A DNA stretch of 61,821 nucleotides, the filler included, from Dugesia japonica (lineage: Eukaryota), in the NCBI GenBank assembly GCA_001938525.1. It is 5 parts of 5 records of this genome, joined end to end, with 100 filler letters (N's around TTAATTAATTAA, not from the genome) between each part and the next. Parts side by side here need not be neighbours in the genome. Positions count along the whole stretch, not along the records: positions 28,437 to 37,300 come from MQRL01298600.1; 4 more parts are not named here. One strand, given 5' to 3'. Positions 20,809-51,120 of the stretch are shown here, in pieces (position 1 is the stretch's first letter; each line of letters opens with the position of its first letter). Under the pieces are notes generated by a model. It made no database searches, was not told where the DNA came from, and saw nothing but the letters and a program-made list of their open reading frames with translations. Position numbers and translations under genes: made by a program.

Positions 20809-21398
20809 TATTCAGCTGAATCATTTAACTGATATTCTCGTGACCGCTGGAAACAAACTATAAAACCTTCATCATCCCACAAACGTTTCATAGCTGCAAA
20901 AATTTCTTCATTTAATACAGCTTCTTCAAAATTCTTTCCCAATGAAAAGACTTTCCTAGCATCTTCCTAAATTTGACTAATAATTGCTTGAAGTAAATTA
21001 TGAATACTATTCTTTCAGCATTTGAAAATTCGATTTTAAGTTGACCCATGGCTCTGATAATAGCAGTTAAACTTTGGAGAGTATTACTATAAACGATAGG
21101 TTTGTATTGCATGCATTCTTCTTTAGTATAACCTTTATTATTTATAATTCTGCAGCAATTTTTAAAATAAAAATTTCCAGTTATTAATAAATACTTCATT
21201 TGTTTTACAATAGTACTTTTCCCTGATTCCCCAGCACCTTAAATTTTAGAGTTAAATATACTTAAAATAATTAAATTTACCAAGTAATAAAATTTTCACA
21301 GTAGATCTTTCATTTTTATAATCATTATATATTATCTTATCAATTTCTTTAGATTTTACCTTATCCACGAATTTCTCATTACTGAAAACACAACCCAT
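20809..21398 (-). CDS. Heterotrimeric G-protein alpha subunit, Gi/o class; first four exons only
   Basis: Exons 21398-21281, 21237-21195, 21149-21008, 20966-20809. MGCVFS acylation motif, [43 protein letters not shown]; intron positions typical of Gi/o. Later exons not found before the join at 19081. Confidence 0.92.
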
Positions 21399-24919: not shown

Positions 24920-25455
24920 TTAATATTCCTCTATATTGAGATTAGACATCTGCACAACCTTCTCAAAATACTCATTCTGTGTCCACAATTTCGATATCTC
25001 CTCAAACTCAAAAATTAACTCTTTCAGTACTACGGTCTTCCCTCTAAGATTTTTGAATAGAACCAAATATTGCACATTTAAATTACAGGTTTTATGAATA
25101 CCTCCTTGATGAAATAGATTTTGAGTAATAAATATCACAGTAAAATTATGATGCCTTGATATCTTTGTGAATAAGGTTTTGATATCGCTGTCTTTATTTA
25201 ACTCAACAACAGTAACATCACCAGATCTCAATATTTTGCCACAATTTTTATCGAAACTATTTATAATTTTCATTTTAATATGAGAAAATTCAAATTGGGT
25301 CAGACTATTCTGTTCATCTGGGTCTCTATGCCAGTTTATGTTTTTAAATTTAGACTAGAATAAATTTGATTTCAATAATTTACATACAAACAAAGTTTCC
25401 CCGCTACCATTATCCCAACAATTTAATATACTGCATAATTTCTTAATTTTTCCAT
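24920..25455 (-). pseudogene. Polinton/adintovirus A32/FtsK-like packaging ATPase, fragment (copy 3)
   Basis: Degenerate Walker A (GSGETLFV) and FTKISRHHNFTVIFITQNLFHQGG..LNVQYLVLFKN; colinear with 32688-33295. Confidence 0.8.
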
Positions 25456-25549
25456 TTTGTTTTAAACATTATTAATAATTCAGTAAGTTTTTTATATTTG
25501 TTTCAATTACATTATTTCCATCAAAACCTAATGTTCTCAATTAATTCAT

Positions 25550-25680
25550 TAATTGTTATAACTAATATTAATTATATAGGTGAAGTTTTTTAAAGAAGTA
25601 ACAAAAAAACTGAACCATAGAATAGGCAAAAATTGTCAATATAAAGTGCAAAGTGACAAGTATACAATTACTATACAATT
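25550..25680 (+). pseudogene. 5' fragment of the TBP-like gene (copy 3)
   Basis: ITNINYIGEV..EVTKKLNHRIGKNCQYKVQSDKYTI matches the N-terminus of 32581-32057 and has the same divergent arrangement to the ATPase; truncated where Gypsy sequence begins. Confidence 0.7.
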
Positions 25681-25699: not shown

Positions 25700-26840
25700 T
25701 AATATATTAATAAATAATCAAGAAAATGAGTAGACCCGTTTTATGTGTAACTTAGAGGCAAGATTTGAGAGACATGAGAGTAGAAGAATGCTGACAAAGA
25801 GCAAACTGTACCATGGATTGGGGAAAAGATACTCATCTAAAAGAAGTATCCAGACAAAGAATGGAGGCTTTTATAGCGGATAAATGAAATATAGGCCGGA
25901 AACATCTAATTAAACATAAAATCAATACAATAAGATAACCTATCAACATAAAACCATACAAATAACTGATGAATTTGGAAAAGAAATTAAATGAAGTGAT
26001 TAAGAATTTATGTAAAAATGGGATAATTTGAAGGTGTAACTCACTCTTAAACACGCCATTGGTATGTTTATGGAGAAAACAGAAAAAAGATATCAGATTA
26101 TGCCTGGATTTTAGAAGGTTAAACGCTATCACGGAAAGACAGGCATTTTCTATGCCCAATATTGAGGAGATGTTTGACGCTATAACGAAACGACATACTT
26201 TAGTTTGATTGACTTAGGGAACGCATATTACCAAGTGGAACTCGAGGAAGCATCCCAAGAGAAAACATATTTTTCAACCAAAAAGGAACAATATTATTTT
26301 ACAAGGATGCCGTTTGTGATCGTGGAAGCCCCAGGGACATTTCAAGAGATGATAGTAAAAGCAACGAGAGATATACAAAGAGCAATATTATATCTGGACG
26401 ATAAATTGATCTTCTCGAAGACGAAAGAAGAACACTATGGTATATTAAAAGACATTCTAGATAAAGTAATAGAAGCAAAGCTTAGAACTGACCCAGAGAA
26501 ATGCAATTTTATGAAAAAGGAAATAAAATCAATAGGCCACATAATTGGGGAAAGCATTTACGAGCAGATCCAATCAAGATTAAGGCGATTAAAGCATTTG
26601 TAGAACCGAAATGTGTAAAACAGTTACGTAGCTTTTTAGGAATATGCAATTAATACAGGAAATTCATCAAGTACTATACACTGAAGGCGAGGAAACTGGA
26701 AGAATTATGCAGCGGAGCGGGGAATACGAGGCTGATATGGTCGTCTGAATTATCGAAAATTTTTGAAGGATTAAAGATTAACATCATCGCGAGTGTTTGG
26801 ATTCCCCGGCATGAACAGGGAATTCATTTGGGACTCAGAA
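25700..26840 (+). mobile_element. Ty3/Gypsy pol (RT) fragment
   Basis: IRLCLDFRRLN, IDLGNAYYQV, RMPF, YLDDKLIFS, QLRSFLGICN; stops and frameshifts. Confidence 0.85.
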
Positions 26841-28566: not shown

Positions 28567-30530
28567 AGTAGTGGGATAGTATCGCACGGTCACAATTTGA
28601 GGGGACCCCCGTCCCCTCTCACCCCTGTGTCTCGATAACTGATTTCGATTGTGACCGAATTTTTGTGACGCTATTTGTTATGGTTTTTTTATCTAAGATT
28701 TTTGGTATCAAAAATTTTTTGAAAGTATCAAAATGTTTTTTGATTGGATAAGTTTTTTTTATCCTGGGGATGTGTGTGTGTATTTTTAAATTTTAAAATT
28801 TGTATGTTTGGGTTGCTAATTGGGTTTTTCAAAAGTAGGTCAGGTTGAGTTTGTGTGTGTGTGTAAAAGAAGGGATTTGGACTCGAGGGGAGCTGGAGAT
28901 CTTGGAAATAATTTTTTTGGAGTTTTTAAGATTTGGTTGTGGTTGGACAAAAATTCGGTCTATATATTGTCTAAAGGACTTATTAGATTGGATGGATGGT
29001 TTGTCCTAGAAGTGTGGTAGAGCACGGTCACAGTTGTTGGATTTTTTCGGTTGATGAGTAAAAGTGTTAAAAATAATTTCGTGAGAGGCAGAGTGGTATG
29101 TGTGGAAAGAGAATTAATTATTGGATTTTAGAAGATTTATTTGAAATTTTTCTGGCAGAGAGTGTATGACGTCATATTCTTTTGAAATCTATATTTTGTG
29201 TAAAAATGCTGTATTTTGATTAAAATGATGAATATTTAGAAAGTAATGGTATTTTTGTAGAAATGATGTATTTTTGAGTATTTTTCAGTAGTAAGGGTTG
29301 TTTTTTATATTTTTTGAACTGAAAGAGGGGATTCTTGGTATTTTTTGAATTTTTTGATGGAAAATTCAAAAATTTTTTTGGTAGGAAATTTTATTAAATT
29401 TTATTAAATTTTTTTTGAACAGACTTTATATTTATGTATGAGATGCGGCAGTCTTGATATTTTGCATGGTATGGGCAGTCTTGACAATTTGCATGAGGAG
29501 TCTCTATATTTATCATGGGATGGACAGACTTGATATTTTGCAAGGCATGAGTCAGTCCAAAATTCATAGGCATGTGATTTTCATTGTATGTGTGTTGCAT
29601 CTGAGTTGCATACTTATTGCATTTATTACAAAATCAAATGCAATCAAATTCAAAAAAATGGCTGTATTAAGTTTTTAAAATTAGAATGACGACTATGTTG
29701 AGTTTCAAAACTTTTTATTGGTGGCAAATTTTTTAAAAATTCTGAGATGTGTTGCATCTGAGTTGCATACCTATTGCCTTTAATGATAAAAAATTCCCAG
29801 GCACGTGATTTTCAGTGTATGTGTGTTGCATTCTTGTGGCATCTGAGTTGCATACCTATTGCATTTATTAATAAATCAATAAAAATTATCAGGCACATGT
29901 TGCTGTATTGTTTTCATAATGTATAAATATTGGATTCATTATTAAAACATTGAGGCAGTCTTGATATTTTTAATATTATTGCAAGATATTGGGCAGTCTA
30001 AAATTAACATGATAAAATTTTTTTAAAAAAACGTTTTTTTACAAGATGATTCAAATATAGACATTTTTTCATAAAAAAACATATTAGCTAAGGAATTTTC
30101 TGTTAAAAACCTATTACTAGTGACAAAAGCATATTAGTGTTGCAATTTTTAATAAAAGGTCTCATTAGTGTTACAATGTTTAATAAAAAACTCATTAGCT
30201 GAGAACATTTCTTTACAAAATGATAAAAATATAGAACGGTTTTCAAAAATTCATGGAACCTTTCCAAAAATAACTAATAAGTCAATATAAAAACTTAAAA
30301 GAAAATATTTTTATGATTGTATAGGGTTAATGAGTATATAGGGTTTATGAGTATATTATTTACATAGTTAGCTTGTATTATTTACATAACAACCATGTAT
30401 TATAAAGATTACATAGTAAGTAAATGTATTATTGGACTTACGAGTATATTATTTACATGGCAACTGTGTAATATAATGGTTATAAGATTTTAGAATATAA
30501 TATTTACATATTAACGATGTAATAAGAGGT
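28567..30530 (+). repeat. Left terminal inverted repeat with internal subrepeat arrays
   Basis: Blocks such as GAGATCTTGGAAATAATTTTTTT, TTGGACAAAAATTCGGTCTA, TATGACGTCATA and GCATCTGAGTTGCATAC all have reverse-complement partners in the right arm in mirrored order. Confidence 0.85.
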
Positions 30531-30687
30531 CACTATGCAAACTATATGTTCATGAAATTAGTTATCATAAATTAATTTATTCAAAATATTGTTTACTTAG
30601 TATTATAAAAAAAATTAAACCTTATTTATTTACTAATTATATAAAGAAATTAAACCTTAATTATTTGCTAATTATAAAAAAAAAGAA

Positions 30688-30987
30688 TTATCCAATAAAA
30701 CATTTATTAATAGAAACTTTATTAATACAACATTTTTTCTCACATTCTTCCGTCATCTTCAAAATCTTTTCTTTTAATATTTTATAATGGTTCTTTTTTT
30801 CATTGAAAGGGAAATCAGATTGAAGGTCTATGATGAAATTGATCATAACTTGAAACATGTCTATTGCTTTTGTCAGTAATAAATGTTTAAAATATTCTTT
30901 AATAATCAACAGCATATATTCATGAAGTAATTCTGGACATCTTTCACGTAATATCTCCAACGCTAAGTCTAAAAAAAGTATTAACAA
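30688..30987 (-). CDS. Hypothetical helical protein inside the Polinton-like element
   Basis: 99-aa ORF with protein-like composition directly inside the left TIR; no motif recognised; start uncertain. Confidence 0.4.
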   Translation of the reverse strand: MLILFLDLALEILRERCPELLHEYMLLIIKEYFKHLLLTKAIDMFQVMINFIIDLQSDFPFNEKKNHYKILKEKILKMTEECEKKCCINKVSINKCFIG

Positions 30988-31652
30988 ATCATATAAATTT
31001 TAGCAAACAACGACTAATCGCAACAGTTTAAAGAATATTAACCAATCATATCAATTATAGTAAATACTAACTAATAGAAACTCACCAATAACGATTGTGT
31101 GTGTATTGCAACTAGTATATAAGCAAAGGTTTACATAACATTTATCAACAATAACTGTGGAACTTGGAAAAATTACATATTTCCATAGTTACAAGATGTT
31201 CTTTTTGAAGACATCAATTATCTATAATTTCAAAGTTATTATTTTATTTTAGAAACCAGTTTCAATAAAAAGATTCAAATTTAGTCTGCTTTTATTTGGA
31301 ATTCACGAGAAAGATATAAATATTCTGGAAGCTATGTTTACAAGAATAAGCAGACAAATTGAAGTCAATGAGGTTAGAAAGAGACGAGAGAAAATATGAA
31401 GACGACAGTCAATGTATGATTCAAGTGGCAATCAAAGGCTTCAAGAAGTCAATAAATTCTGTGGGAGTCATTAGAAAAATTAACAACATCGAAAAGAAGA
31501 ATTAAATTTGTTTAGTTAATGTTTACTTAGTGTTATATTTTTTTTATACTGAAATATATCTTTATATAAACGAAGTCTTTTTAATTTTATTAAAACAAAA
31601 CTAAATAAATAAAACAAAGACTAAATAATGATGATAATACATTTATTTTAAA

Positions 31653-31970
31653 TCACACATAACAAAAATAATTGTTGTATTGGATCATTTCTGTCTGGAA
31701 CTTCTTTATAGCGAGCATTAATTTAAACTTTGAACGCCCGATACAGTCAGGTGCGCAAAATTCAGCTGCCATATATTGGTTGACAATCACATTCACAATC
31801 ATTGGCTTTTTTTCTTTGTCCAGCATTCCACGTTCATTTAATATACATTTTAAAATTTTTGTATCTGTTAACATTCCTAAATTAAATTTACTACTAAAAT
31901 TACAAAATATTAAATATTCAACCATTTTTACTAAAATCGTCTTCTGATTCCAATTAAATTTATTTTTCAA
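31653..31970 (-). CDS. Conserved hypothetical protein downstream of the TBP-like gene
   Basis: Homolog at 46058-46345 shares KFNL.MLT, RGMLD.E.KPM, VNQ.M.A.FC.PD.I...KF.L, YNNYFCY. Confidence 0.65.
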   Translation of the reverse strand: MKNKFNWNQKTILVKMVEYLIFCNFSSKFNLGMLTDTKILKCILNERGMLDKEKKPMIVNVIVNQYMAAEFCAPDCIGRSKFKLMLAIKKFQTEMIQYNNYFCYV

Positions 31971-32056
31971 GAAATATTAATGAAATGCAATATTTATATA
32001 TATATATGTGTGTGTATAATAAAAAACCACAACGTAACATATTAATAATTTGAAAT

Positions 32057-32581
32057 TTAAATATCTACTTTTAAATTGATATTTTTCGTACTTGCATTGT
32101 AAAGTTTTGCATCCGTGTTGCGAATTTTCAAATTTTTATCAAACAAATTGAATAAATCTGAAGTAATGTTATTCAGATATCCTTGAAAATACAAATTTTT
32201 AAGTCCAAGTATCACTGGTTTTCCTGTTGCGAACACATTTACACATAAAGGGTCATATTTTACTAGTATTAGAGCAGGAAATAACTCTTTTTCGAACCAA
32301 CAGTTGACTATTCTTGCAAATTTGTACAAATTTATTGAAACTCATATATTTACGACAATTTTTAGTGACTGTAATTGTAAATTATTTAAATCATAGGGGT
32401 TCAAATCATGTAGTTTCAATGGTTTCTTACATCCCATTATTCTAAATGTTCCTGATCTGAAGTAAATAATTGTATATTTATCACTTTTGACTTTAACTTG
32501 ACATGGTTTGCCTAAAAGAAAGCTCATTGTTTTTGTTACTTCTTACAACACTTCACCTCTGTAATTAATATTGGTAATCAT
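32057..32581 (-). pseudogene. Divergent TATA-box-binding protein (TBP)-like gene of the element (copy 1)
   Basis: 174 codons in one frame with two premature stops. Two TBP-type repeats: MITNINYRGEV..TIIYFRSGTFRIMGCK and LQLQSLKIVVNI.VSINLYKFA..WFEKELFPALILVKYDPLCVNVFATGKPVILGLK, compared with canonical TBP LQNIVST..TALIFSSGKMVCTGAK and [55 protein letters not shown]. Confidence 0.82.
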
Positions 32582-32687
32582 GATAAATGAATTAATGAGG
32601 AACATTGGGGTTTTGATGGAGTTAATTTAACTGATTTTTTAAAACAAATATAAACAACGTATTAAATTATGAATAAAGAAAAACAAG

Positions 32688-33295
32688 ATGGAAAAATGAA
32701 GAAATGATGCAGTTTATCAAATTGTTGGACCTAGTGGTAGTGGGAAAACTTTGTTTGTATGTCAATTATTGAAATCAAAGTTATTCAAGTCTAAATTAAA
32801 AAACATAGGAGTGGCGATGAGGAACATGGACTGACTAAATCTGAATTTTATAATATAAAAATGAAAGTTATAAGTGGTTTTTATTCTAATTGAAGCAAAA
32901 GAATAAGACCAGGTGATGATGATCTTTATCAGGAGGCAAATAAAGAAAAGGATTTCAATAATTTATTCACAAAGACATCGAGACATCGTAATGTGACTGT
33001 GATAATTATTACTCAAAATCTATTTCATCAAGGGGATAGTCATAGAACCCATAAATTAAACGTACAATATTTGGTTATATTCAAAAATCTTAGAGATCAC
33101 ACTGCTGTTGATTTTCTAGCAAGACCAGCATATCAAAATAACAGACAATTTCTTATTGAATCATTTCAAGATGCAACAGAAAAACTGCATGTATATCTAT
33201 TTCTTGACTTTACACAGCAATTTCCAGATGACTATAGAGTGAGAACAGATATATTCAATCTAAATGATATAACAATATATAAACAAAATAGGTAA
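32688..33295 (+). pseudogene. A32/FtsK-like genome packaging ATPase (copy 1)
   Basis: YQIVGPSGSGKT (Walker A), DDLYQEA (Walker B), FTKTSRHRNVTVIIITQNLF, NVQYLVIFKNLRD, YLFLDF, YRVRTDIF; stops and frameshifts in the 5' half. Confidence 0.88.
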
Positions 33296-33318
33296 TGTTT
33301 CATAATATTTCAAAGAAA

Positions 33319-33563
33319 ATGACAAAATTAAAGAAATTTGTAGTTGATCAAGTAACTGATGGTGTTGTTAAACGTCAACAAAATATCTTTTAAGAAGAAA
33401 TAGTATGGAAAAAGAAAAAACAATCGCATAAGAAGCATCATTTAAATAAAAAGCAACAAGTTAATAAAAGGAAACAAATGAATATGTTTAAAAAACTTGC
33501 AAAAAGAATCGGAAAGAAGCTGAAAATAATGGACATGAAAACAATATTATCATAAACAAATAA
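33319..33563 (+). pseudogene. Small very basic protein (candidate DNA-condensing core protein)
   Basis: MTKLKKFVVDQVTDGVVK followed by K/R-rich sequence; homolog at 44897 (-). Confidence 0.45.
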
Positions 33564-33590
33564 TTGGTATTATTATTTTAATAAGTAAAG

Positions 33591-33913
33591 ATGAAATTAA
33601 AAAGAAGCATGCCGTTTTTTACAGCTTTGATTAAATCATCAAAACCTTTTAGAATGAGAATTTTACAATCATTCCCATCATATGTTATAGATGATTTAAT
33701 TGAAATTATTATAAATATTGTTCGTGGTAATTTAGATTTAAGTGCAGCCAAAAGGAAAACATTGAAAAAACATTAAAAAAAACTTTATTAACGCTTGTGA
33801 ACACCAAAAATAGATAATCAATGAGACGAGTATTGAATAATCAAGGAGATAGCTTTTTAGCAGCATTAATACCAATTACATTGGCAGCATTAGTCTTAAT
33901 TCATTTCAAATAA
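33591..33913 (+). pseudogene. Conserved Polinton/adintovirus small protein (E..iNi.rGn..L...kk.L.KH..Q.G.gFla.LiP type)
   Basis: LIEIIINIVRGNLDLSAAKRKTLKKH..MRRVLNNQGDSFLAALIPITLAAL; homolog at 44590-44770. Confidence 0.7.
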
Positions 33914-34069
33914 ACAATGGTTGACTTTAAAACAGCAATATTAATATTTAACTCAAATGAACAATGGGTAGATTCCAATCATTACCTAACTTTTACCTGA
34001 AATTGGCATTGAATTGTTGTAATGGAGACTAAAATGATTATAATATAGACAATTTATATGGACAATATC

Positions 34070-36383
34070 TTATAATCTTTATTATACAAGGTTGTTATGT
34101 AAATAATTCCCTCATAAGTCTTATATTATACAGTTTTTATGTAAATAATACCCCCGTAAGCCTTATATTACACGGTAAATATGTAAGTAATATACATCTA
34201 ATTCATGGTTACTATGTAAATAATACACTCATAAACCATATATTTCATGGTTACTATGTAAATAATACAGGGTAGCTATGCAAATAATATACTCATTAAC
34301 CCTATAGATATCAAAATATTTACTTATAAGTTTTTTTTATATAGACTTATTAGCTATATTTATTGAAACATTCTGCTTTTTATCATTTTTATTGACAAAT
34401 TCCCAGCTAAAATGTTTTTGTGAAAAAGTATTATGTTTTTATCATTTTGTATAGAAAATTGTCACCACATATATGTTTCTTATTAAAAATTGCATCGGTA
34501 ATGAGATTTTTAATTAAAAATTGCAACGCTAATGAGAATTTTTTTAAAAATTGCATCGCTAATGACATTTTTGTTTATTCAAAAATTCATCACAAATGAT
34601 ATTTTTTATAAAAAAAGTCACTAGTAATGTTTTTTAAAGAAAATTAACTATGTAATATGTTTTTAGGAAAAAAAGTTCTGTTTTTATCATCTTGTAAAGG
34701 AAACATTTAAATATTTAAATTTCGCAAAGACTCTCCTCTTTGAAGTTTTTTGATAGATATATTTTATCATGTAAATATCGCAAAGACTCCCCTCTTTGGT
34801 TATTTTTAATGCACTGAAAATCATATGCCTGAGAATTTTCATTAATAAAAACAATATGTATGCAACTCAGATGCCACAAGAATGCAACACACATACACTG
34901 AAAATCATACGCCTGAGAATTTTTAAAACTCAACATAGCCGCAATTTTCATTTATCAAAACTTATTATAACCGCCATTTCGAATTTTTATTGATTTTTTA
35001 ATAAATTCAATAGGTATGCAACTCTGATTCAATTCGTATGTAACACACATACATTAAAAATCAGGCACCTGAGAATTTTTGTAAACTGAACTTAGCCGCT
35101 ATTTTGAATTTTTATTGATTTTTCAATAAATGCAATAGGTTTGCAACTCATATGCAACACACATACATTAAAAATCACATGCCTGAGGATTTTTATTGAT
35201 TTTTCTTAATAAATGTAACTCATATGCATCACACATACACTGAAAATCATATGACTATGAATTTTAGACTGCCACATCCCTTGCAAAATAACAAGTCTGC
35301 CCCATACCATGTTAAATGTAGAGACTCGTCCATCCAAAATATCAAGACTGCCCCATACCATACAAGATATCAATACTGCCTCATACCATTCTAAATATCA
35401 AGACTGCTCCATTTTATATATAAATATAGAGTCTGCTTAAAAGAAACTTAAAATTTCCTTCCAAAAAATAACAAGACTTCCTCTTCCCTGTTCGAAAAAT
35501 ATGAAAAAACACACTTCCAAGTCAAACATACTCAAAATATACTCAAAAATACATCAAATACTCAAAATTGCCATCACCCTCATCAATTTAAGCAAGTTAC
35601 AGCATTTTTAACAAAAATAAAGATTTCAAAAGATTATGACGTCATACACTCCCAACAGAAACATTTCAAATAATTATTAAAAAATCTGATAATTATTTCT
35701 CTTTCAATACATACCACTCTCCCCGTTCTGAATTTTTTTTAACACACTTATACTAGTTACAAAATCAACCAATCAAATTAAAGCTTTTTAAATAAAAAAT
35801 TAAAGCATAATCGACACACAAAATCTTCTACATCACATTACCTTTCCAACAACATATCTACCATTCAAATTCAATAGAACACTACAAACCTACAACTTAC
35901 CAGAAAAACACCCCACGATAACTCAGACGACTGTTTCGTGGCGCCACTACCCTTCTAGCGAAAACCATCCATCACACACCATAGGTCCTATAAAGAATGT
36001 GTAGACCGAATTTTTGTCCAACAACAAACAAATCTTAAAAACTAAAAAAAAAATTATTTCCAAGATCTCTAGCTACTCCTCAAATCCAAAACAATTCTTT
36101 CACACACACACAACCACACACAAACTCAACTTGACCTACTTTTTAAAAAAGCCCGTAACAACCCAAACACACACAAATTTTAAAATTTAAAAATAAACAC
36201 ACGCACAACCACAGGATCAAAAGAAAATTGATCCGATCAAAATAATTTTAATCCCAAAAATCTTAGAAAAAAAACTAACCAAAATCATATAGCACAAAAT
36301 AATAGCACAATCGTAATGTGTTTCCGAGCCCCCCCGAAATGTGCTAGTACGCAATTGTGCCGTAGCGCCACTACCTATCTACT
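34070..36383 (-). repeat. Right terminal inverted repeat
   Basis: Reverse-complement partner of 28567-30530, with extra subrepeat units and an insertion around 35760-35920. Confidence 0.85.
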
Positions 36384-39099: not shown

Positions 39100-39990
39100 A
39101 ACGTGACTTCTTTCCTTGTGTTGTTATTTGTATTGTTCGAATAACATCTGTGGTTGTTATTTCCGAATACATTTCAGGTCTGTTCACTTTTATTTTGATA
39201 ACTAAACTGTCTGTTCATATTTGTGTAACAGTCCTCTGTGTAGTGACCTTTCTTGTTGCATCTTGAAAAACTAACTTTGGTACAGTCTCTTCTTAAGTGT
39301 TATTCAGATCCACAAGCATAGCACTTTTCTTTCTTTCTTGACAATTTCTGCTTACATGACCCATATTGTTACATGTCCAACACGTGATTTCTCTTCTTTC
39401 GTTGTTTTTGTTCTGTTACATTCCTACATTTCGACTCTTTTTGAAATTTGTTTGTTCTGGACTTCGGCGAACGGCATCTCTGTAGTTAAGAACTACATTT
39501 ATTTCTTCAGTTTTTACTTCGTCTTGTAAATCTTACCATTCTTTTATTGCTTTAAATACATCGTCTACTTTTTGTATTTTTTTGATTTGGTTTTATGTTT
39601 AATCTTTCTGTCATTTAAACTATTCATTGTAAGCACTTTTGTTAAATCCTCTTTGTTCCATTTATGAGCCATTAACTTTTCTACCAATCCTTCAATCTTC
39701 TTCTTATAGATATTTATGTGCTCTTCATTCCTTCGATAATTTAGAGCTTACTCCATATATTTAATCATTGTTGATCCTCTAAAGCAAGCCTTTCTGAATC
39801 TTTCTTCAAATTCCAATAATTCGACTTCATTTTCATAGATTTCACACAGTTCGTTATCTATGAAAGAAACTACAATCAAACTCATATGGCTTTTCTTTAT
39901 TCCGGTTAAATCAAAATATTTCGTTGTCTTCAAAATAAATTTTTCGACATCATCGCCTGATTTGAAAATTCCAGGGCTCATGTCTTATTT
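39100..39990 (-). mobile_element. LTR-retrotransposon gag relic
   Basis: MSPGIFKSGDDVEKFI N-terminus and three CCHC knuckles (CWTCNNMGHVSRNC, CYACGSE.HLRRDC, RCNKKGHYTEDC). Confidence 0.75.
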
Positions 39991-41054: not shown

Positions 41055-41091
<37 letters not shown>

Positions 41092-41960
41092 TTACATAAG
41101 GTGCATGTTATTTTGTAAGTGATATTTTTTATGGCATATATTTCTACCATCACAAATGCATTTGGAGCTACAAAATTCTGTCTTGGTTTCTGTAATTGGA
41201 TGCCCAAAGGTGCTTGGGTTTTAAATATAATTCTTTGATAGTGTTTTAGTTTCGATTTTTTAATTATAATTTGCATGATTTGGCTACATTTTTCATTAAT
41301 AAAAGGTAATGTAATTACTGTATTTGTCTTTTGTTTGATTTTTTTAAATTCTGTATTTGAGTATAGATGTTTATATAAAATTTCTTTTGGATAACCATTA
41401 TTTAAAAATTTATTTTTTATCAACCTGAGAGAAGTCAGTCTCATTTCTTCGTTTGAAAATAGTTTTTCAGCTCTTAATCTTTCACTCTTGATTATTCCAA
41501 TTTTCTATCTGATGGTAATATTACTACTCCTGGGTAATATATGTCCACTGTAAAATGGTATTATATACAACTGGGTAAGTAATAATAACCAGGTTTCTTT
41601 TGGATTAAGGTGTCCAGAAAAGGAATCTGAAAATCGATTGACTTCTCTTATCATTAATACTATTGGCTAGTTCTAAAATATTTTCCTATGAAGAATTAGT
41701 AACAAAGAAAATATCGTCTATATATCTAAACCAAAGATATATCTTCCTCTCAGCTTTGAGAATAATTTTATTTTCAATGAAGTTCATAGAAAATATCGCT
41801 AAAATAGGCGATAAATTGTCACCGATTGCCAGACCAATTTTTTGTTTTAAAGGTTGTTTACCGATAAAATGCTGTCAGAGAATAGACACAAATTAATAAG
41901 AGATTTGAAATCCTTTTTGGTGATTTCATGGATATCTGTATGTTCTTTATATCTCTCAAA
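41055..41960 (-). mobile_element. Penelope-like RT / GIY-YIG relic adjoining and truncating the capsid gene
   Basis: GLAIGDNLSPILAIFSMNFIE, WFRYIDDIF, IPFLDTLI, FLNNGYP, ITLPFINE, NITYKITCTLCKDIYI. Confidence 0.8.
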
Positions 41961-41967
41961 GAAATCA

Positions 41968-42387
41968 CTAACAATATCGATGACATTGTTGTAAGATATA
42001 TATATTCTTACTATCACCATTATAATTTATTATAGTTTCTATCAATGCTTTGTGAAAATAAGATTCATTTCCACCTTCAATTTTGAAATTATTAAATGAA
42101 AGAATTACATCCGTAAAAAGTGTATGCAACATATAGTTACTAGGAACCGAATTTACCGTATCAGTCAAATCTTTACCATTCTTATCAACTACTTTTACTT
42201 TAATATACAATAAAGTATCATTCAAATCCAAATATTCAGTTTGAGATCCATTTATAAAAAACTCTACATCGCTTTGTAATTCAGAAATTGAATTCATAGG
42301 AAAGACATTTTCGAAAGTACCACTTTCGAAAACAGCTTGTGGAAATGGTCGATCAAAAATACATAATTCAGTTTTACCGCAAATCAT
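41968..42387 (-). pseudogene. Double-jelly-roll major capsid protein, N-terminal part
   Basis: KTELCIFDRPFPQAVFESG..PMNSI..VEFFINGSQTEYLDLNDTLLYIKVKV..NYMLHTLFTDVILSFN..YFHKALIETIINY, typical of the Polinton/adintovirus MCP N-terminus. Confidence 0.88.
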
Positions 42388-42412
42388 TTTTCAAATATTG
42401 TCACATGTCCTC

Positions 42413-42829
42413 TCATTCGTTGGTTTGTACGTGATGAGTGAGATTTTTTACGTTTTTTATCAGTTGGTTCTGTTTTAGATTGACTTTGTTAAACATATTA
42501 ATTATTTCAGATGGTATTTTATTAGTTATACTTTGTGGTAATATACCTGCTACTTTTGAAATCATACTGGTAACTCTACTAGATAAGGAAGAAACTACAT
42601 TTCCAGGTTCAGCTGATGCATTTGATTTTAATGTTGGTAGAATTTTTCCGTCATTAGCTAGTACATCCTGAGCTGCTTTCATACCAAAAGAACCAATACA
42701 TCTAAGAATAGGCAAAACAAATTTCCCTATTGTTCGTAACAAACCAGATCCATATTGTTTTCCAAGAAAGTAAGGAAATTCTCTACCTGATTGACTGGTA
42801 CTATACAACGATACAATATAAGGATTCAT
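42413..42829 (-). CDS. Conserved Polinton virion-associated protein with QxGxG motif and amphipathic helix
   Basis: QSGREFPYFLGKQYGSGLLRTIGKFVLPILRCIG..AAQDVL; located between the minor and major capsid genes. Confidence 0.72.
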   Translation of the reverse strand: MNPYIVSLYSTSQSGREFPYFLGKQYGSGLLRTIGKFVLPILRCIGSFGMKAAQDVLANDGKILPTLKSNASAEPGNVVSSLSSRVTSMISKVAGILPQSITNKIPSEIINMFNKVNLKQNQLIKNVKNLTHHVQTNE

Positions 42830-42840
42830 TATTATTTTTT

Positions 42841-44073
42841 CTAAAATGTAACTTTAAATGTGTTTTTGTTTATATATGATGAAGAAATAGGTAAATACAT
42901 TTGATTATTAACAATTATTTGTATTATCTTATCATTCTCATTTTCTTCTATCCATAGTGCTTTCAATAAAGGAACATTAACATCAGCAATTATAGGTTCA
43001 ACAATTCTACAATAGATGAACATTTCATTATAAAATTTTATAATTACAATTATTGTGAGAATAATTTTTGGACTTAACCATTGATTGGATTTGAGATTTC
43101 ATTAAAATAAGATAANNNNNNNNNNNNNNNNNNNNNNNNNNNNNNNNNNNNNNNNNNNNNNNNNNNNNNNNNNNNNNNNNNNNNNACTATTGTCGAAAAC
43201 TTGAACTTTTTACAAATAAATTTTGTTTTGATCGAAGCTTTATCTTATTTTAATGAAATTTCATTATAAAACTTTAATATTCAAGGTTTCTTATTACTTT
43301 TATATAGTAGTTTATCATTGAATTGTATTCGAGTATATTGTGATTCTTTTAATCCTCATGTTTTTGTTAGGATTTTATCGAATTTAACACTTTTAGTACT
43401 ATTTGATAATGTAAATTCAAATATTTCATTTTGCTGTAATGAAAAGGTTTTAAATAACTTTAGAAGGTGTTTCTTAAAATAGACATTTAGTTGATTTAAA
43501 TCATTTATATACAATTTGGATTCGAATTGAAAAGAATGTTTAGTTACAATCGGTAAAAATATTTAATTTTCTTTCAATTGAATCATTGTCTTTGAAGTGA
43601 TGAAAGCCTAGAAAAAAAATTTTATCTCCGAATTGTTTACTAGTATCAAAAACTAATGTGTTCTCTTAACTTACATATTCACCGATAAAACGTGAAAACC
43701 TCTTTAAAGTTTCCTGATTTTCAAAGAATAAACTGTGTTATGTAAATATTAAAACGCTTTCTTTCGATAATTTTATAACTGTTTACGTATACTTTTTATA
43801 TTTGTCTTGAGAATTAACAGTTTAAAGAACTTTTTTTAATGTTAACATCAAGTATTAGCTCCTTCTAAATTAGTTTAAATAATTCATATTCAATTAGAGT
43901 GACTATAAGATGGCATGGCTGAATATACAAAGGTGAAATTCATCAAAGAAAATTCACATCTACCATGTAAGTTGGATTTTGAAGCTCAATAATGTAATTA
44001 TTAGAAGTATTATTTGGATGAACTAGTGGACTACTATTACTAGGAAAAGTGTATAGAAATTATTAGATTTCAT
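42841..44073 (-). pseudogene. Minor capsid (penton) protein, interrupted
   Basis: N-terminal TFPSNSSPLVHPNNTSNNYIIELQNP..HGRCEFSL and C-terminal MFIYCRIVEPII..VPLLKAL..QMYLPISSSYI; insertion at 43036-43257. Confidence 0.8.
43036..43257. mobile_element. Penelope pLTR-like insertion in the penton gene
   Basis: Same repeat family as 6735 and 40565; flanked by the direct repeat ATTTCATTATAAAA (43022-43035, 43258-43271). Confidence 0.6.
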
Positions 44074-44074
44074 C

Positions 44075-44465
44075 GTAGTTTGCGACTTGTTAATATCCAA
44101 CTTAGTTTTTGTATCCACTCCATTTTACATAGTATTGTTAATTCTTTACAGTTTATTTGATTAAAATGGAACATCTTTTGCAAATCTATTGAATACAACA
44201 ATAAAAGACAAAATATACTAGTAAACTTTATTAATCTTTGAATATGGAATCATTTCTATTAGATAAATTTACCATAAATCATATATATCATATGCTTCAT
44301 ATGCTTTTGTAGTAAATCTTTTCAACATTGATTTGTTCAGACTGTTCACTAGCTGATTCGATAACCACTTTTTCGTCTTTCTTTTCGATTTTTAGCTGCT
44401 TTCATCAATTTTCCTATGCCTCGAAAACCTGCATGGATTTTTGGATCCGTTTATATTGTCTTCAT
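44075..44465 (-). pseudogene. Polinton retroviral-like integrase remnant (catalytic core deleted)
   Basis: N-terminal TDPKIHAGFRGIGKLMKAAK..KKWLSNQ fused almost directly to the C-terminal part ending in chromodomain-like KQYYVKWSGY..SW. Confidence 0.65.
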
Positions 44466-44917
44466 TTTTGTCTTCATTACAACAATTTGATGTAAATTTC
44501 AAGTCAAAGTTAGGTAATGATTGCAATCCATCCATTTTTCATTTGAGTAAATTCTAATGTAATTATTATTATTAAAGTCAACCATTGTTTATTTGAAATG
44601 AGCTAAGCCTAATGCAGCCAATGCAATTGGTAACAATACTGTTATAAATCCACCACCTTAATTGTTCATACTCGTCTCATTCATTTTCTATTTTTTGTGT
44701 TTACAAGCGTTAATAAAGTTTTTCTTTTTAGCTGCACTCAAATCTACATTAACACGAACAATATTTATAATAATATGAAATTTCCTATGCGATTGTTCCT
44801 TCTTTTTTCCATTATATTTCATCTCAAAAGATATTTTTTGACATTTAACAATACCATCAGTTACTTGATCAACTATAAATTTCTTTAATTTTGTCATTTT
44901 TGTAATATTATGAAAAA

Positions 44918-45341
44918 TTACCTATTTTGTTTAAATAATATTGCACGTTTAAATTGCGTGTTCTATGACTACCTCCTTGATGAAATAAATTTTGAGTAAT
45001 AAATATCACCTTCACATTACGGTGTCTCGATATCTCTGTGAATAAATTATTGAAATCTTTTTCTTTATTTGCCTCCTGAAATGGATCATCAACAACAATA
45101 ACATCACCTTGTCCTAATCTTTTACTCCAAACTTTATCAAATCAATTTATAATTTGCATTTTAATATTACAAATTTCAGATTTATTCAGTCCATGCTCCC
45201 TATCTGTACCTCTATGCCAGTACATGTTTTAAATTTAGACTTAAATAACTTTGATTTCAATAATTGACATACAAACAAATTTTTCCCGCCACTACTAAGT
45301 CCTACAATTTGATAGACTGAGTCATTTCTTAATCTCTCCAT
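44918..45341 (-). pseudogene. Packaging ATPase (copy 2), 3' part deleted
   Basis: SVYQIVGLSSGGKNLFV, DVIVVDDPFQEANKEKDFNNLFTEISRHRNVKVIFITQNLFHQGG. Confidence 0.85.
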
Positions 45342-45448
45342 CTTGCTTTTCTTTAATTTGTTCATAATTTATTACATTGTTTATATTTGTTTTACCGAAT
45401 AATTTAAATTAACTCCATCAAAATCCTAATTTTCTTCATTTATTCATT

Positions 45449-45972
45449 ATGATAACCAATATTAATTACAGAGGTGAAGTGTCGCAAAACGTAACAAAGA
45501 AAATGAGCTTTTTTATAGGTAAGCCATGTCAATTTAAAATAAAAATGATAAATATACAATTATTTACTTAAGATCAGGAAAATGTAGAATAATGGGTTGT
45601 AAGAAACCCTTGGAACCGTATGATTTGAACCCCTATGATATAGAAAATTTATAATTACAATTGCTAACAATTGTCGTAAATATAGGAGTTTCAATAAATC
45701 TGTATAAATTAGCAAGCATAGTGAACTGTTGGTTAGAACCACAGTTAATTCCTTTTCTAAGACTTGTAAAATATGACCCTTTATGTGTAAATGTATTCTC
45801 AACAGGAAAACAAGTGATATTAGAATTTTAAATTTGTATTTTCAAGAATATGTGAATAACATTAGTTCAGATTTATTCAATTTGCTTGATAAAATTTTAA
45901 AAATTCGCAACACGGATGCAAAACGTTAACATTTGAAGTACGAAAAATATCAATTTAAATGTAGATATTTAA
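45449..45972 (+). pseudogene. TBP-like gene (copy 2)
   Basis: MITNINYRGEVSQNVTKKMSF..IIYLRSGKCRIMGCKKP..IVVNIGVSINLYKLASIVNCWLEPQLIPFLRLVKYDPLCVNVFSTGKQVIL; frameshifts and stops at positions different from copy 1. Confidence 0.8.
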
Positions 45973-46057
45973 ATTTCCAATTATTAATATATTGCGTTGT
46001 GGATTTTTATTATGCATATATATATAATGCATTTCATTATTATTTCTTGTAATTAAA

Positions 46058-46345
46058 ATGAAGAAAATAAAGAAAATGGAAGAACAATTTAGTAAAAGAT
46101 GTTGGGCATTTGTAAATTTTATTAATAAATTTAATTTAGAAATGCTTACAAACATATTGGCAAAACGCGGGATGCTTGATGAAGAAAGAAAACCAATGCT
46201 CCTGGACTCTGTAGTTAACCAGTAAATGAATGCTGATTTTTGCGAGCCTGATGGTATCAGGTGCGCAAAGTTTAATCTGGTGGTCGCTATGGTAACGCAT
46301 CAAATTGAACTACAGATTTATAATAATTATTTTTGTTATTATTGT
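46058..46345 (+). pseudogene. Homolog of hypothetical protein 31653-31970
   Basis: KFNLEMLTNILAKRGMLDEERKPMLLDSVVNQ*MNADFCEPDGIRCAKFNL..YNNYFCY. Confidence 0.65.
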
Positions 46346-48309: not shown

Positions 48310-51120
48310 TCTTATGGAAGAATTTTGTGTTCAAACTACCGACCACGATGGCAAAAAAAGAAAAAGATTAAAGACAAAAACTTTTTCAAACAAAATCTTC
48401 AACTCAGGAGTTACTAATTCCAAAGCCGAGTTTCTTTGATGGATCATCAGATACAGCTAAAGATTGGCTTCAAACAGCAAAGGAATTCGTGTCTTTTAAT
48501 CAGATGGAATTATCTTTTGCATTTGATATGCTAATACGACACTATGCTAAAGGAATTGTTGTTGGAAAAACAAAAGAAGTTGAGAAATTATCTAATGAGA
48601 TTTGTGAACGTTGGTTTCAAGAGTCATTCATTATTCAAGAAACATTGGTCGATAAAGTTTCAATCTTGTCAAGAATAATGCAGAAANNNNNNNNNNNNNN
48701 NNNNNNNNNNNNNNNNNNNNNNNNNNNNNNNNNNNNNNNNNNNNNNNNNNNNNNNNNNNNNNNNNNNNNNNNNNNNNNNNNNNNNNNNNNNNNNNNNNNN
48801 NNNNNNNNNNNNNNNNNNNNNNNNNNNNNNNNNNNNNNNNNNNNNNNNNNNNNNNNNNNNNNNNNNNNNNNNNNNNNNNNNNNNNNNNNNNNNNNNNNNN
48901 NNNNNNNNNNNNNNNNNNNNNNNNNNNNNNNNNNNNNNNNNAAAAAGAATATATATCAATCTAAATTTGGAAACAATCACCCAAAGATAAATGTTCAAAG
49001 GGACACAAATATTAGAGACCGGCCAACTCTTTTTCAAGAAGATCCACATTTTGAACGAAGCAAGCCGATACAAAAACAAGGTTAGTACAATAATTTTCCG
49101 CAGTATTCATTGAATCATTTAGCAAATAAACTATATTGTAAAGCTTAAGGGAAAATACTACCACGAAACGAAATCTTAAAGACAGGAGCATGTTTTTGCT
49201 GTGGAGAAACAAATCATAAAAAGATGAATTGCCCATTGAAAGGAAAATGCTTAATTTGTGGAAAGGAAGGTCTTAGTTTTCGGGATTAATTGCTAATTCA
49301 AGTAAACGATTTTTCGGTGTCTAGAGTTTTGTGTATTGCAGAAGAGGATGATAATCGGTCCTGTACAAGGGAATATATAGATTATATACATGATGTACCT
49401 ACAGACGATGAAGATATGAAAAACGATTGGCAACCCACTGCATCCATCTCATCAATGAGGTTGCAAAAACCGATCGCAAAACTAGAGATGCAACAATGAT
49501 ATTTGATAAAAAGAAGGTTTTTCAGAAGAAAGATGGAAGAGAATGGAGTATAATGCAGTGTAATTGATATGATGTTGAAATGTTATGGGATTCTGGAGCA
49601 TCATTATCAGTAATGAGTGCATAAGTCTGGAGAAGAATTGTATTACCGGCGTTATTGCAGTTGCAGATTGTGTTAACATGAGTTTTTTCAGAGAAAGAAG
49701 AAAAATGTATTGGTAAAACTAAATTACATTTACATTGGCAATGAAAACAGAGAGAAAAGGACGTAGTAACTGTCAAATATATTCATCCTGCATTTATTGG
49801 GGAGATTGACATGATAAGGATATTTGGAATGAAGATAACCGAAGTTGATTTTATTGATTCAAAAGATGTTGTTGAGCCAGTTGTTGAGAATCCCAATAGA
49901 GTGAAAAATGTTCATAATATTCAAAAGAATGTCAATCAAGAAAGTAGAAGAATGATAGAAGAACACGTAGAGATATTTATGATATCGAAATTTGATCTTG
50001 GATTTACAACAATAATGCAGCATCACATTGAAACAAAAGGAGGACCAATAATGTTAAATCCTAGAAGACAACCAATGCATTTGGAAAGCAAAATTGATGA
50101 GTTACTAAAAAATCTTAGAAAAGCAAATATTATCCAGAGTTGCAGAAGTCCATGGAATTCACCATTGGTAAATGTACCGAAGAAAGATTGAACAATAAGA
50201 ATGTGTTTGGATTTTCGGAAATTAATTTCAATTACAGAGAAATACTATTTTCCGGTGCCTGATATTCATCTACTTTTAGACACGCTTGAGGGATCAATTC
50301 TATTTTCATCGCTAGATATAGGACAAGAATACTACCAAATTGAGTTAAGTGAAGAATCGAAGTTGAAAACAGTTTTTAGTACAAAGATGGGGCAGTTTTG
50401 TTTTAATCGCATGCCATTTGGATTGTGCTCTGCACCAGAAAATTTCCAAAGTTTGATACATCAATTATTCAACGGAATGTTGTACAAAGAAGTACCAGTA
50501 TACTTGGATGATATTTTGATATATTGACGAACTCAACAAGAGCATGATGAACGGGTTGGTAACGTTTTTTTCTTTACTAAAATAAACAAGTTTAAAGATA
50601 AATCCGGATAAATGCGTATTCAATTCTGAGAAATTGCGATTCATGGGTAATACAATTAGTGCTAAAGGTGTAGAGACAAAACATTCGGGAAGCAAACAAA
50701 CCAAAATGCACCACACAAATACGGGCATTTCTAGNTCTAACCAATTATTACAGGCGGTTTATAAAAGACTAGCTGTCATTGCAGAACCATTATATGTAGC
50801 CACTGCGCGCCATAAAAAAAATATCGAATGAACATATACTTCAAGAATACAATTTGCTATGAATGCAACTCAACAGAAATCATCTGGATTATCTCCTTTC
50901 GAAATCATCTTTAGAAGAAGGATAGTTTTACATGGATTTCTGCAACAAGAAAGATTAGATCATAAAAATTGTTAGGGTGAAACACCCGGTCAAAGAGGAA
51001 ACTAGATTTTAAATCAACAAGAAAAAACGAAAAATACCGTATTAACACTAAGAACAAGTACCAAAATCGGACCAGGTGGTAAATAAAAGAAACAACATAA
51101 GAAAAGTTGATAACTATGAA
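48310..51120 (+). mobile_element. Ty3/Gypsy gag-pol relic
   Basis: CCHC knuckles (CFCCGETNHKKMNC), protease VMDSGAS, RT (SPWNSPLV, RMCLDFRKL, LDIGQEYYQI, RMPFGL, YLDDILIY), integrase tail (TQQKSSGLSPFEIIF). Confidence 0.88.

What the first reader, a model, noticed from the sequence alone, without database searches (positions are those of the whole stretch)
32057..33295. A Polinton/adintovirus-like virus family encoding its own TATA-binding-protein homolog
Seen: two short ORFs in the track (32342-32527, 32057-32329) are one 174-codon intronless frame broken by two stops. It shows both TBP repeats (IYFRSG..RIMGCK; FE[K/P]ELFPAL..P..VNVF.TGK.VILGLK) and sits head-to-head with an A32/FtsK-like packaging ATPase inside an element with AGT termini and long TIRs. 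Established: the Polinton core set is pPolB, integrase, ATPase, protease and two capsid proteins, with transcription by host Pol II; viral TBPs are known from nucleocytoviruses and, as TBP mimics, from beta/gamma-herpesvirus late transcription. Inference: this lineage captured a basal transcription factor, perhaps to drive late genes or to sequester host TFIIB. I do not know of a description of TBP in Polintons but could not check the literature.
Basis: partly seen in the sequence, partly recalled or inferred. Interest (0 to 1): 0.92.

Follow-up and report, generated by a model that had tools for sequence, protein, structure and literature searches.

The report
Polinton TBP with matching late promoter
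A decayed virus-like jumping element here carries a broken gene for a stripped-down TATA-binding protein, and in its intact relatives the particle-building genes sit behind a non-standard TATA box that this protein likely reads as a switch for late genes.

Summary
Real. The frame 32581-32057 (-) is a TBP homologue broken by two stops (Pfam PF00352 E=1.9e-9; PDB TBP E=1.2e-8). It lies beside a broken packaging ATPase in a 7.8-kb internally deleted Polinton/adintovirus derivative. It belongs to a large family of ~150-aa mini-TBPs (197 clusters at 50% identity). Of 80 fetched loci, 37 carry a Polinton core gene and 33 more carry genes linked to such loci. The family is under purifying selection (median dN/dS 0.16) and folds as a TBP saddle. 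It keeps the TFIIB stirrup and three of four intercalating Phe, but its DNA face is rewired to conserved polar residues. A variant TATA box, YATAAAC, precedes 90 of 101 virion/integrase genes (shuffles 4; antisense 0), 2 of 62 TBP genes, and 0 of 17 genes in four TBP-less adintovirus contigs. Best reading (0.7, binding untested): an early-made viral TBP drives late promoters with host TFIIB/Pol II. A 'TBP' label already appears in an adintovirus paper's figure legend; I found no description of the family or the box. This scan reported the same system on other genomes. Head-to-head layout is local, and no TSD was found.

The parts
28567..36383 (.). Internally deleted, non-autonomous Polinton/adintovirus derivative (7.8 kb); may be a composite of two related ends
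   Evidence: AGTAG at both ends, no TSD; no integrase, capsid, protease or PolB match inside
28567..30491 (+). Left terminal arm
   Evidence: Inverted homology to the right arm, main blocks 67-75%
34064..36383 (-). Right terminal arm
31181..31369 (+). Remnant of an unnamed gene (cluster c3) that neighbours TBP in 22 related loci
   Evidence: tblastn E=2.5e-6; cluster size
32057..32581 (-). TBP-like gene, broken by two in-frame stops (codons 13 and 80)
32649..32656 (+). TATAAACA box, 39 nt before the ATPase start; putative late promoter
   Evidence: family statistics
32688..33295 (+). A32/FtsK-like packaging ATPase, broken by a stop and a frameshift
   Evidence: 62% identity to an intact relative, E=9e-67; P-loop with weak Pox_A32 hit
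33278..33285 (+). TATAAACA box inside the ATPase 3' end, about 41 nt before a small basic ORF starting at 33319
33551..33558 (+). CATAAACA box, 40 nt before the core-protein ORF
33591..33892 (+). Putative virion core protein remnant (cluster core4; a relative has a weak Adeno_PX hit)
41968..46290 (.). Second, larger copy in inverted orientation: broken TBP (45446-45852 +), ATPase (44932-45332 -), integrase piece (44164-44445 -), putative penton piece, core protein (42413-42829 -), putative major capsid 5' part (41968-42387 -); boxes at 45379, 44449 and 42868 (-)
   Evidence: About 80% identical to the first copy; gene map; boxes
25028..25670 (-). Third fragment: ATPase, divergent spacer and TBP 5' end
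   Evidence: 78% identical to 32467-33095

Best explanation
The window holds a broken copy of a minimal TATA-binding protein encoded by a Polinton/adintovirus lineage, and in intact elements this protein likely acts as a late-promoter factor. SHOWN: TBP homology and predicted saddle fold; Polinton context; purifying selection; a YATAAAC[AG] box before virion-module and integrase genes but rarely before the TBP gene; conserved polar changes on the DNA-facing surface; a kept C-terminal stirrup. INFERRED: (1) the TBP gene is transcribed early from an ordinary host-type promoter; (2) the viral TBP binds YATAAAC, whose C at position 7 ordinary TBP disfavours; (3) it recruits host TFIIB through the kept stirrup glutamates, and so Pol II; (4) the shortened first repeat removes the helix used by TFIIA, Brf1, Mot1/BTAF1 and TAF1 (partners recalled), freeing it from host control; (5) capsid, core, protease, ATPase and integrase genes thus switch on together. 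The copies in this window are dead, and no active programme is seen in host RNA.
For: Family: 197 clusters at E<=0.001. Context: 37 of 80 loci hold PolB, integrase, ATPase, protease or putative capsid genes; 33 more hold genes linked to those loci; 10 (9 of them under 2 kb) hold neither (identities by Pfam for integrase, PolB, protease, PLA2). Co-inheritance: TBP distances track ATPase (rho 0.72, n=21, 0/999 permutations) and integrase (0.58, n=12, 1/999); dN/dS median 0.16, max 0.42, in 29 of 39 close pairs with usable dS. Fold: natural homologue P0002 (73% identical), pLDDT 97, pTM 0.87; BFVD top named hits are nucleocytovirus TBPs. Residues in 61 intact homologues, yeast numbering from the alignments: F116, F190, F207 61/61; E186 57/61; E188 60/61; V122->R 60/61; T124->M 61/61; L205->N 61/61; V71->N 51/61; N159->S/T 61/61; I194->R 44/61; V203->C 48/61. 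I194, V203 and L205 are the three positions of the altered-specificity mutant TBPm3, and TBPm3 discriminates against C in the downstream half (PMC1636458, passages). Box: 90 of 101 de-replicated upstream windows, antisense 0, shuffles mean 4.1 and max 9 of 200; 0.03 per 120 nt in gene bodies. Many boxes lie about 32-50 nt before the ATG; TBP genes have 2 of 62 boxes and 23 of 62 canonical TATAWAWR. Control 0 of 17. Precedent: KSHV ORF24 with TATT late promoters (PMC12529657, abstract and introduction).
Against: No binding, start-site or time-course data. The control is small (4 contigs, 2 near-identical, all incomplete) and from another lineage, so box and TBP could co-occur by descent only. 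Host TBP can use the box weakly: TATAAAcg kept 27% activity in a plant assay (PMC10005294, passage). 11 of 101 windows lack the box. Only 23 of 62 TBP genes show a canonical TATA. The family alignment was chosen by similarity to the query, which favours shared motifs. The F99 equivalence is uncertain. In host RNA runs nearly all reads come from other copies, 67-92% run on into unlike sequence, and strands do not follow the genes.
Confidence: 0.7

Rival explanations
1. Host TBP reads the box, and the viral TBP is a decoy or repressor that ties up TFIIB or occupies host and early TATA promoters.
For: Stirrup glutamates are kept; a TATAAAC variant keeps 27% activity with plant TBP.
Against: A pure TFIIB decoy would not need invariant, polar DNA-facing residues. 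Canonical TATAAATA appears in only 4 of 101 late windows against 52 for TATAAACA, so the non-canonical C is selected.
Confidence: 0.12
2. Another element-encoded protein recognises the box, and the TBP is a partner in a multi-protein late complex, as with the six herpesvirus activators.
For: Unnamed genes recur beside TBP (exonuclease-like cluster in 22 loci, c3 in 22, zinc finger in 9). KSHV needs six factors.
Against: None of these neighbours spans both main lineages as TBP and the box do, apart from the patchy exonuclease-like gene. The box has TATA shape and spacing.
Confidence: 0.1
3. The box is a poly(A)/termination signal of the upstream gene (TATAAA and CATAAA are recalled as weak poly(A) variants), unrelated to TBP.
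For: 22 of 90 boxes lie within 35 nt of an upstream stop codon.
Against: 26 of 90 lie more than 35 nt inside an upstream coding sequence. In the window the box faces the ATPase from a divergent spacer with no upstream co-directional gene. TBP genes usually follow a co-directional gene yet have 2 of 62 boxes.
Confidence: 0.04
4. The TBP and box serve a helper virus's RNA polymerase (virophage-like dependence on a nucleocytovirus) rather than host Pol II.
For: Nucleocytoviruses encode TBP-like proteins; Polinton-like viruses associated with large viruses appear in the search listings.
Against: Sequence identity to those viral TBPs is only 6-19%. The long-form member matches eukaryotic TBP best in the PDB. 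TBP genes often have host-type TATA boxes.
Confidence: 0.04

Closest known systems
Cellular TBP / TRF family (Pfam PF00352)
   Same: Two-repeat saddle, three of four intercalating Phe, C-terminal stirrup with both TFIIB-contacting Glu.
   Different: About 150 aa; first repeat lacks the canonical stirrup Phe and in most members much of helix H2 (linker 22 aa or less in 38 of 62, against 32-33 in full-length TBPs); polar DNA face; encoded by a mobile element.
Beta/gammaherpesvirus viral TBP mimic (KSHV ORF24; PMC12529657, abstract and introduction)
   Same: Viral TBP-fold protein with a polar DNA-binding surface, paired with a variant TATA box at late genes while early genes use host-type promoters.
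   Different: ORF24 is a large multi-domain protein that binds Pol II directly, works in a six-protein complex and is modelled as incompatible with TFIIB (section heading). The Polinton protein is a bare saddle that keeps the TFIIB stirrup. Its box differs at position 7, not 4. Its function is untested.
Nucleocytovirus TBP-like proteins
   Same: Top named structural matches in BFVD.
   Different: 6-19% identity; they serve a virus-encoded RNA polymerase (recalled), and no such gene was seen in these loci. The large-virus TBPs tested fall outside the Polinton group.
Adintoviruses / MELD viruses (Starrett et al. 2021, PMC8502044)
   Same: PolB, integrase, ATPase, adenain, PLA2 and putative capsid gene set. 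The Fig. [quoted passage not shown]
   Different: TBP occurs once, in that legend, with no discussion. The figure is not held, so which virus carries it is unknown to me. I saw no family description or promoter box in the passages read.

Membership tests
TBP family (PF00352) | Profile score above the gathering cut-off | tested here: met
   37.7 vs 22.9 bits for the window frame; 47.2 and 53 for two intact homologues
TBP family (PF00352) | Two-repeat saddle fold | tested here: met
   AlphaFold2 of natural homologue P0002, pLDDT 97; BFVD matches to viral TBPs; both repeats aligned by hhalign, probability 99.2. The PDB fold search could not be run.
Canonical TBP (TBP/TRF1/TRF3 type) | Four intercalating Phe and a hydrophobic DNA face | tested here: not met
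   Three Phe invariant, the fourth apparently Pro; several polar replacements
Canonical TBP (TBP/TRF1/TRF3 type) | C-terminal stirrup Glu pair for TFIIB | tested here: met
   57/61 and 60/61; role from PMC10005294 passage. Binding itself untested.
Canonical TBP (TBP/TRF1/TRF3 type) | Binds TATAWAWR and nucleates a Pol II pre-initiation complex | not testable with these tools
   Needs biochemistry
Polinton/adintovirus | pPolB, integrase, ATPase, protease and two capsid genes in the lineage | tested here: met
   Related loci such as L004, L023, L060 and L062 hold PolB, integrase, ATPase and putative capsid genes; protease in 7 other loci. The capsid labels rest on position, size and recall, with no Pfam hit.
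Polinton/adintovirus | Complete autonomous gene set in this element | tested here: not met
   28567-36383 has no match to integrase, capsid, protease or PolB; it is a deletion derivative
Polinton/adintovirus | AG/AGT termini with long TIRs | tested here: met
   AGTAG at both ends; arms about 1.9 kb, 67-75% identical
Polinton/adintovirus | 6-bp target-site duplication (recalled feature) | tested here: not met
   Flanks do not match
Herpesvirus-type viral TBP late activator | Variant TATA box restricted to late genes | tested here: met
   90/101 vs 2/62; 'late' is inferred from gene class
Herpesvirus-type viral TBP late activator | Pol II-binding N-terminal domain and multi-protein activator complex | tested here: not met
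   Protein of about 150 aa with only the saddle; it works like, but is not, a member

The most novel reading that the evidence does not exclude
A widespread branch of Polintons/adintoviruses runs a one-protein private transcription switch: a minimal TBP that has shed host regulatory surfaces, reads its own TATA variant and borrows host TFIIB/Pol II. This would be a natural orthogonal TBP-promoter pair and would define the first early/late cascade for these elements. If lineages differ in both box and DNA-facing residues, it is a natural specificity code for TBP.
Probability: 0.6. Interest if true: 0.88.

Novelty: new variant of a known kind. Interest (0 to 1): 0.77.

Why it matters
How Polintons time their virion genes is, to my knowledge, not established, and they are usually taken to rely wholly on host transcription. 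A dedicated TBP with a matching box gives a direct test of whether they have a virus-like late phase: express a natural intact protein, test binding and reporters, map 5' ends. It would be a far simpler counterpart to herpesvirus late transcription. It would also be a natural example of TBP specificity changed at the positions found in the yeast TBPm3 mutant. The box helps annotate small virion genes.

Tried and rejected
No whole genome is held, so copy number, intact copies and dN/dS within this genome were not measured; one run of Logan contigs laid 14,671 contigs on 3 kb at >=80%, which shows only that the family is abundant and diverse. IMG/VR gave no family member in Polinton context: none; one large-virus TBP; ATPase and capsid scans none; a pattern scan for canonical TBP stirrups none. 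The PDB fold searches did not complete, so no comparison with solved structures by fold exists. RNA: no RNA holder was listed. Laid raw reads gave 62, 1217 and 130 reads on the TBP-ATPase stretch and 1810, 1449 and 165 on the capsid stretch, mostly under 95% alike, without gene-matched strand or clear starts; read as passive transcription of scattered fragments. The box is not enriched over the whole window (42 vs 39.7 expected); the signal is positional. Origin: the tree keeps 61 Polinton-type TBPs on one side of a 97/95 branch, but the outgroup was only 6 large-virus TBPs and 1 archaeal TBP on long branches. PDB ranks differ by query (archaeal first, eukaryotic first), so the donor is unresolved. 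The ESM Atlas returned TBP-domain clusters with uninformative taxa. TBP absence in the control contigs could not be checked beyond the DNA held. No complex prediction was run: DNA cannot be the partner and no host TFIIB was at hand. A TAAGA box (lead from e1-8577431) occurs in 1 of the 11 windows lacking YATAAAC.

Full report
1. Observation. The minus-strand frame 32581-32057 has 174 codons with in-frame stops at codons 13 and 80. Read with X at the stops, it matches Pfam TBP at E=1.9e-9, above the cut-off. All 30 PDB sequences matched at E<=1 are TBP or TBP-containing chains. Five intact relatives of 149-155 aa are 44-73% identical, and they end about 24 residues before the window frame does. 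The ATPase remnant starts at 32688 on the plus strand and has a stop and a frameshift.

2. The element. Both ends start with AGTAG, at 28567 and 36383. The arms are about 1.9 kb and 67-75% identical in their main blocks, and there is no target-site duplication. Between the arms lie a c3 remnant, TBP, ATPase and a putative core gene, but no integrase, capsid, protease or polymerase match. It is a deletion derivative, possibly joined from two related ends. A second copy at about 42-46 kb, about 80% identical, runs on into integrase, putative penton, core and putative major capsid pieces across an assembly gap; a third fragment lies at 25 kb. All three are broken or partial.

3. The family and its context. 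A search of 1.84 billion cluster representatives gave 197 hits at E<=0.001. A metagenome scan confirmed 173 stretches and returned the best 80 loci; the other 93 were not seen. Of the 80, 37 hold a core gene, 33 more hold genes found in such loci, and 10 hold neither, 9 of them under 2 kb. Pfam confirms integrase, organellar/viral PolB, adenoviral protease, PLA2 and KilA-N among the neighbours. The ATPase has only weak P-loop hits, and the capsid labels have no Pfam hit and rest on size, order and recall. L004, L023 and L054 have the order TBP, ATPase, core, integrase, penton, core, capsid, as the second window copy does apart from TBP orientation. TBP is on the ATPase strand in 24 of 26 loci, so head-to-head is a local inversion. 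TBP distances track ATPase (rho 0.72, n=21) and integrase (0.58, n=12). dN/dS has median 0.16 over 29 of 39 close pairs; 10 pairs with saturated or tiny dS were dropped, two of which had a ratio of 1.0. The 61 Polinton-type rows form one side of a 97/95 branch against 7 outgroup rows; the donor is unresolved.

4. Structure. AlphaFold2 of the natural homologue P0002 gave pLDDT 97 and pTM 0.87. The helix after strand 5 is 7 residues in the first repeat and 17 in the second. Foldseek on BFVD gave 31 matches at E<=0.001, with nucleocytovirus TBP/TFIID proteins as the top named rows. The PDB fold search did not complete. Yeast numbering was taken from the alignments. Among 61 intact homologues, F116, F190 and F207 are invariant and E186/E188 are kept in 57 and 60. 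DNA-facing positions (assignment partly recalled) are replaced in a conserved way: V122->R, T124->M, L205->N, V71->N, N159->S/T, I194->R, V203->C. PMC1636458 (passages) says that I194F, V203T and L205V change yeast TBP specificity at base pair 2, and that TBPm3 discriminates against C in the downstream half. This places the second repeat on the upstream half and the remodelled first repeat on the half that holds the C of the box (inference).

5. The promoter box. Reading upstream regions showed a recurring YATAAAC (noted, before I saw the scan's earlier notes). In de-replicated 120-nt windows it precedes ATPase 23/24, major capsid 9/9, penton 11/13, core genes 16/18 and 6/6, integrase 12/14, PLA2 9/12 and protease 4/5. 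It precedes TBP in 2/62, where 23/62 have a canonical TATAWAWR; PolB 1/3 and c3 3/20 are also low. Pooled: 90 of 101 sense, 0 antisense, shuffles 4.1 (max 9 of 200). 42 boxes are intergenic and 48 are inside upstream genes, in all three frames, so this is a DNA-level signal. In the window the box stands 39-45 nt before the ATPase, a small ORF and both core genes. Four adintovirus-like contigs found through integrase have no TBP hit and 0 of 17 boxes, but they are few, incomplete and of another lineage.

6. Mechanism. Most likely (0.7) the TBP is made early from a host-type promoter, binds the box, and recruits host TFIIB and Pol II to switch on virion and integrase genes. Homology, context, selection, residue pattern and box distribution are shown. 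Binding, partners and timing are inferred. Rivals are a decoy/repressor (0.12), another viral reader (0.10), a poly(A) signal (0.04) and a helper-virus polymerase (0.04). Against exclusivity, TATAAAcg kept 27% activity in a plant assay (PMC10005294, passage). Host RNA shows only scattered, mixed-strand reads from other copies.

7. What is known. Eight full-text searches turned up one overlap. Starrett et al. 2021 (PMC8502044; passages, section 3.4, supplement search and part 1 of 400) and its preprint 10.1101/697771 (passages, one section) list 'TBP' in figure legends of MELD viruses, without discussion. The figure, the slide files and the cut part of the supplement were not readable and may bear on novelty. 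Term searches found no TBP in PMC11071296, 10.64898/2026.10.13.758929, PMC11131425 (also its supplement), PMC11161782 or PMC12220804. Subscription papers and Repbase are outside the library. The functional analogue is KSHV ORF24 (PMC12529657, abstract, outline, introduction). This scan has reported the same TBP-plus-box reading on other genomes; those are unchecked AI notes and were not counted as support. A search by sequence found none.

8. Verdict. A real TBP-family gene of a Polinton/adintovirus lineage, dead in this window. It is a new variant of viral TBP-driven late transcription: the gene is noted in passing in print, while the family-wide anatomy and matching box were not found described. 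Interest 0.77.

Noticed in passing
window 20912-21199 (-): Exon-like ORF resembling a G-protein alpha subunit (recalled resemblance, not searched); the Polinton pieces may lie in or near its introns.
   Followed up: no
window 26307-26603, 49811-50191 (+), 39748-39981, 41055-41444 (-): ORFs resembling retroelement reverse transcriptase/gag/endonuclease fragments (recalled resemblance).
   Followed up: no
window 18982, 28337, 37301, 51123: Paired N runs around TTAATTAATTAA are assembly joins; they create false 100-nt inverted repeats.
   Followed up: yes
window 13896-14231 (-): A more distant integrase fragment (32% identity) of another element.
   Followed up: no
window 31653-31925 and 30688-30915 (-): Two ORFs inside the element with no Pfam hit and no match among the related loci.
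   Followed up: partly
L020, L054, L056, L006, L016 just before the integrase start: A conserved tiny Met-Gly ORF ending in Cys-Cys overlaps the integrase start; it looks like a myristoylated micro-peptide and may be the real target of the integrase box.
   Followed up: no
L041, L044, L045, L051, L030: A leucine-rich-repeat gene in TBP-bearing elements carries the box in 5 of 5 windows, so it may be a late or virion gene.
   Followed up: partly
L058-L080 versus L001-L057: Two TBP forms: a ~165-aa form with a eukaryote-like helix H2 and a ~150-aa form without it, both with the same box.
   Followed up: partly
L081: A 44.7-kb IMG/VR contig of a larger virus with a full-length two-repeat TBP, outside the Polinton group.
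   Followed up: partly
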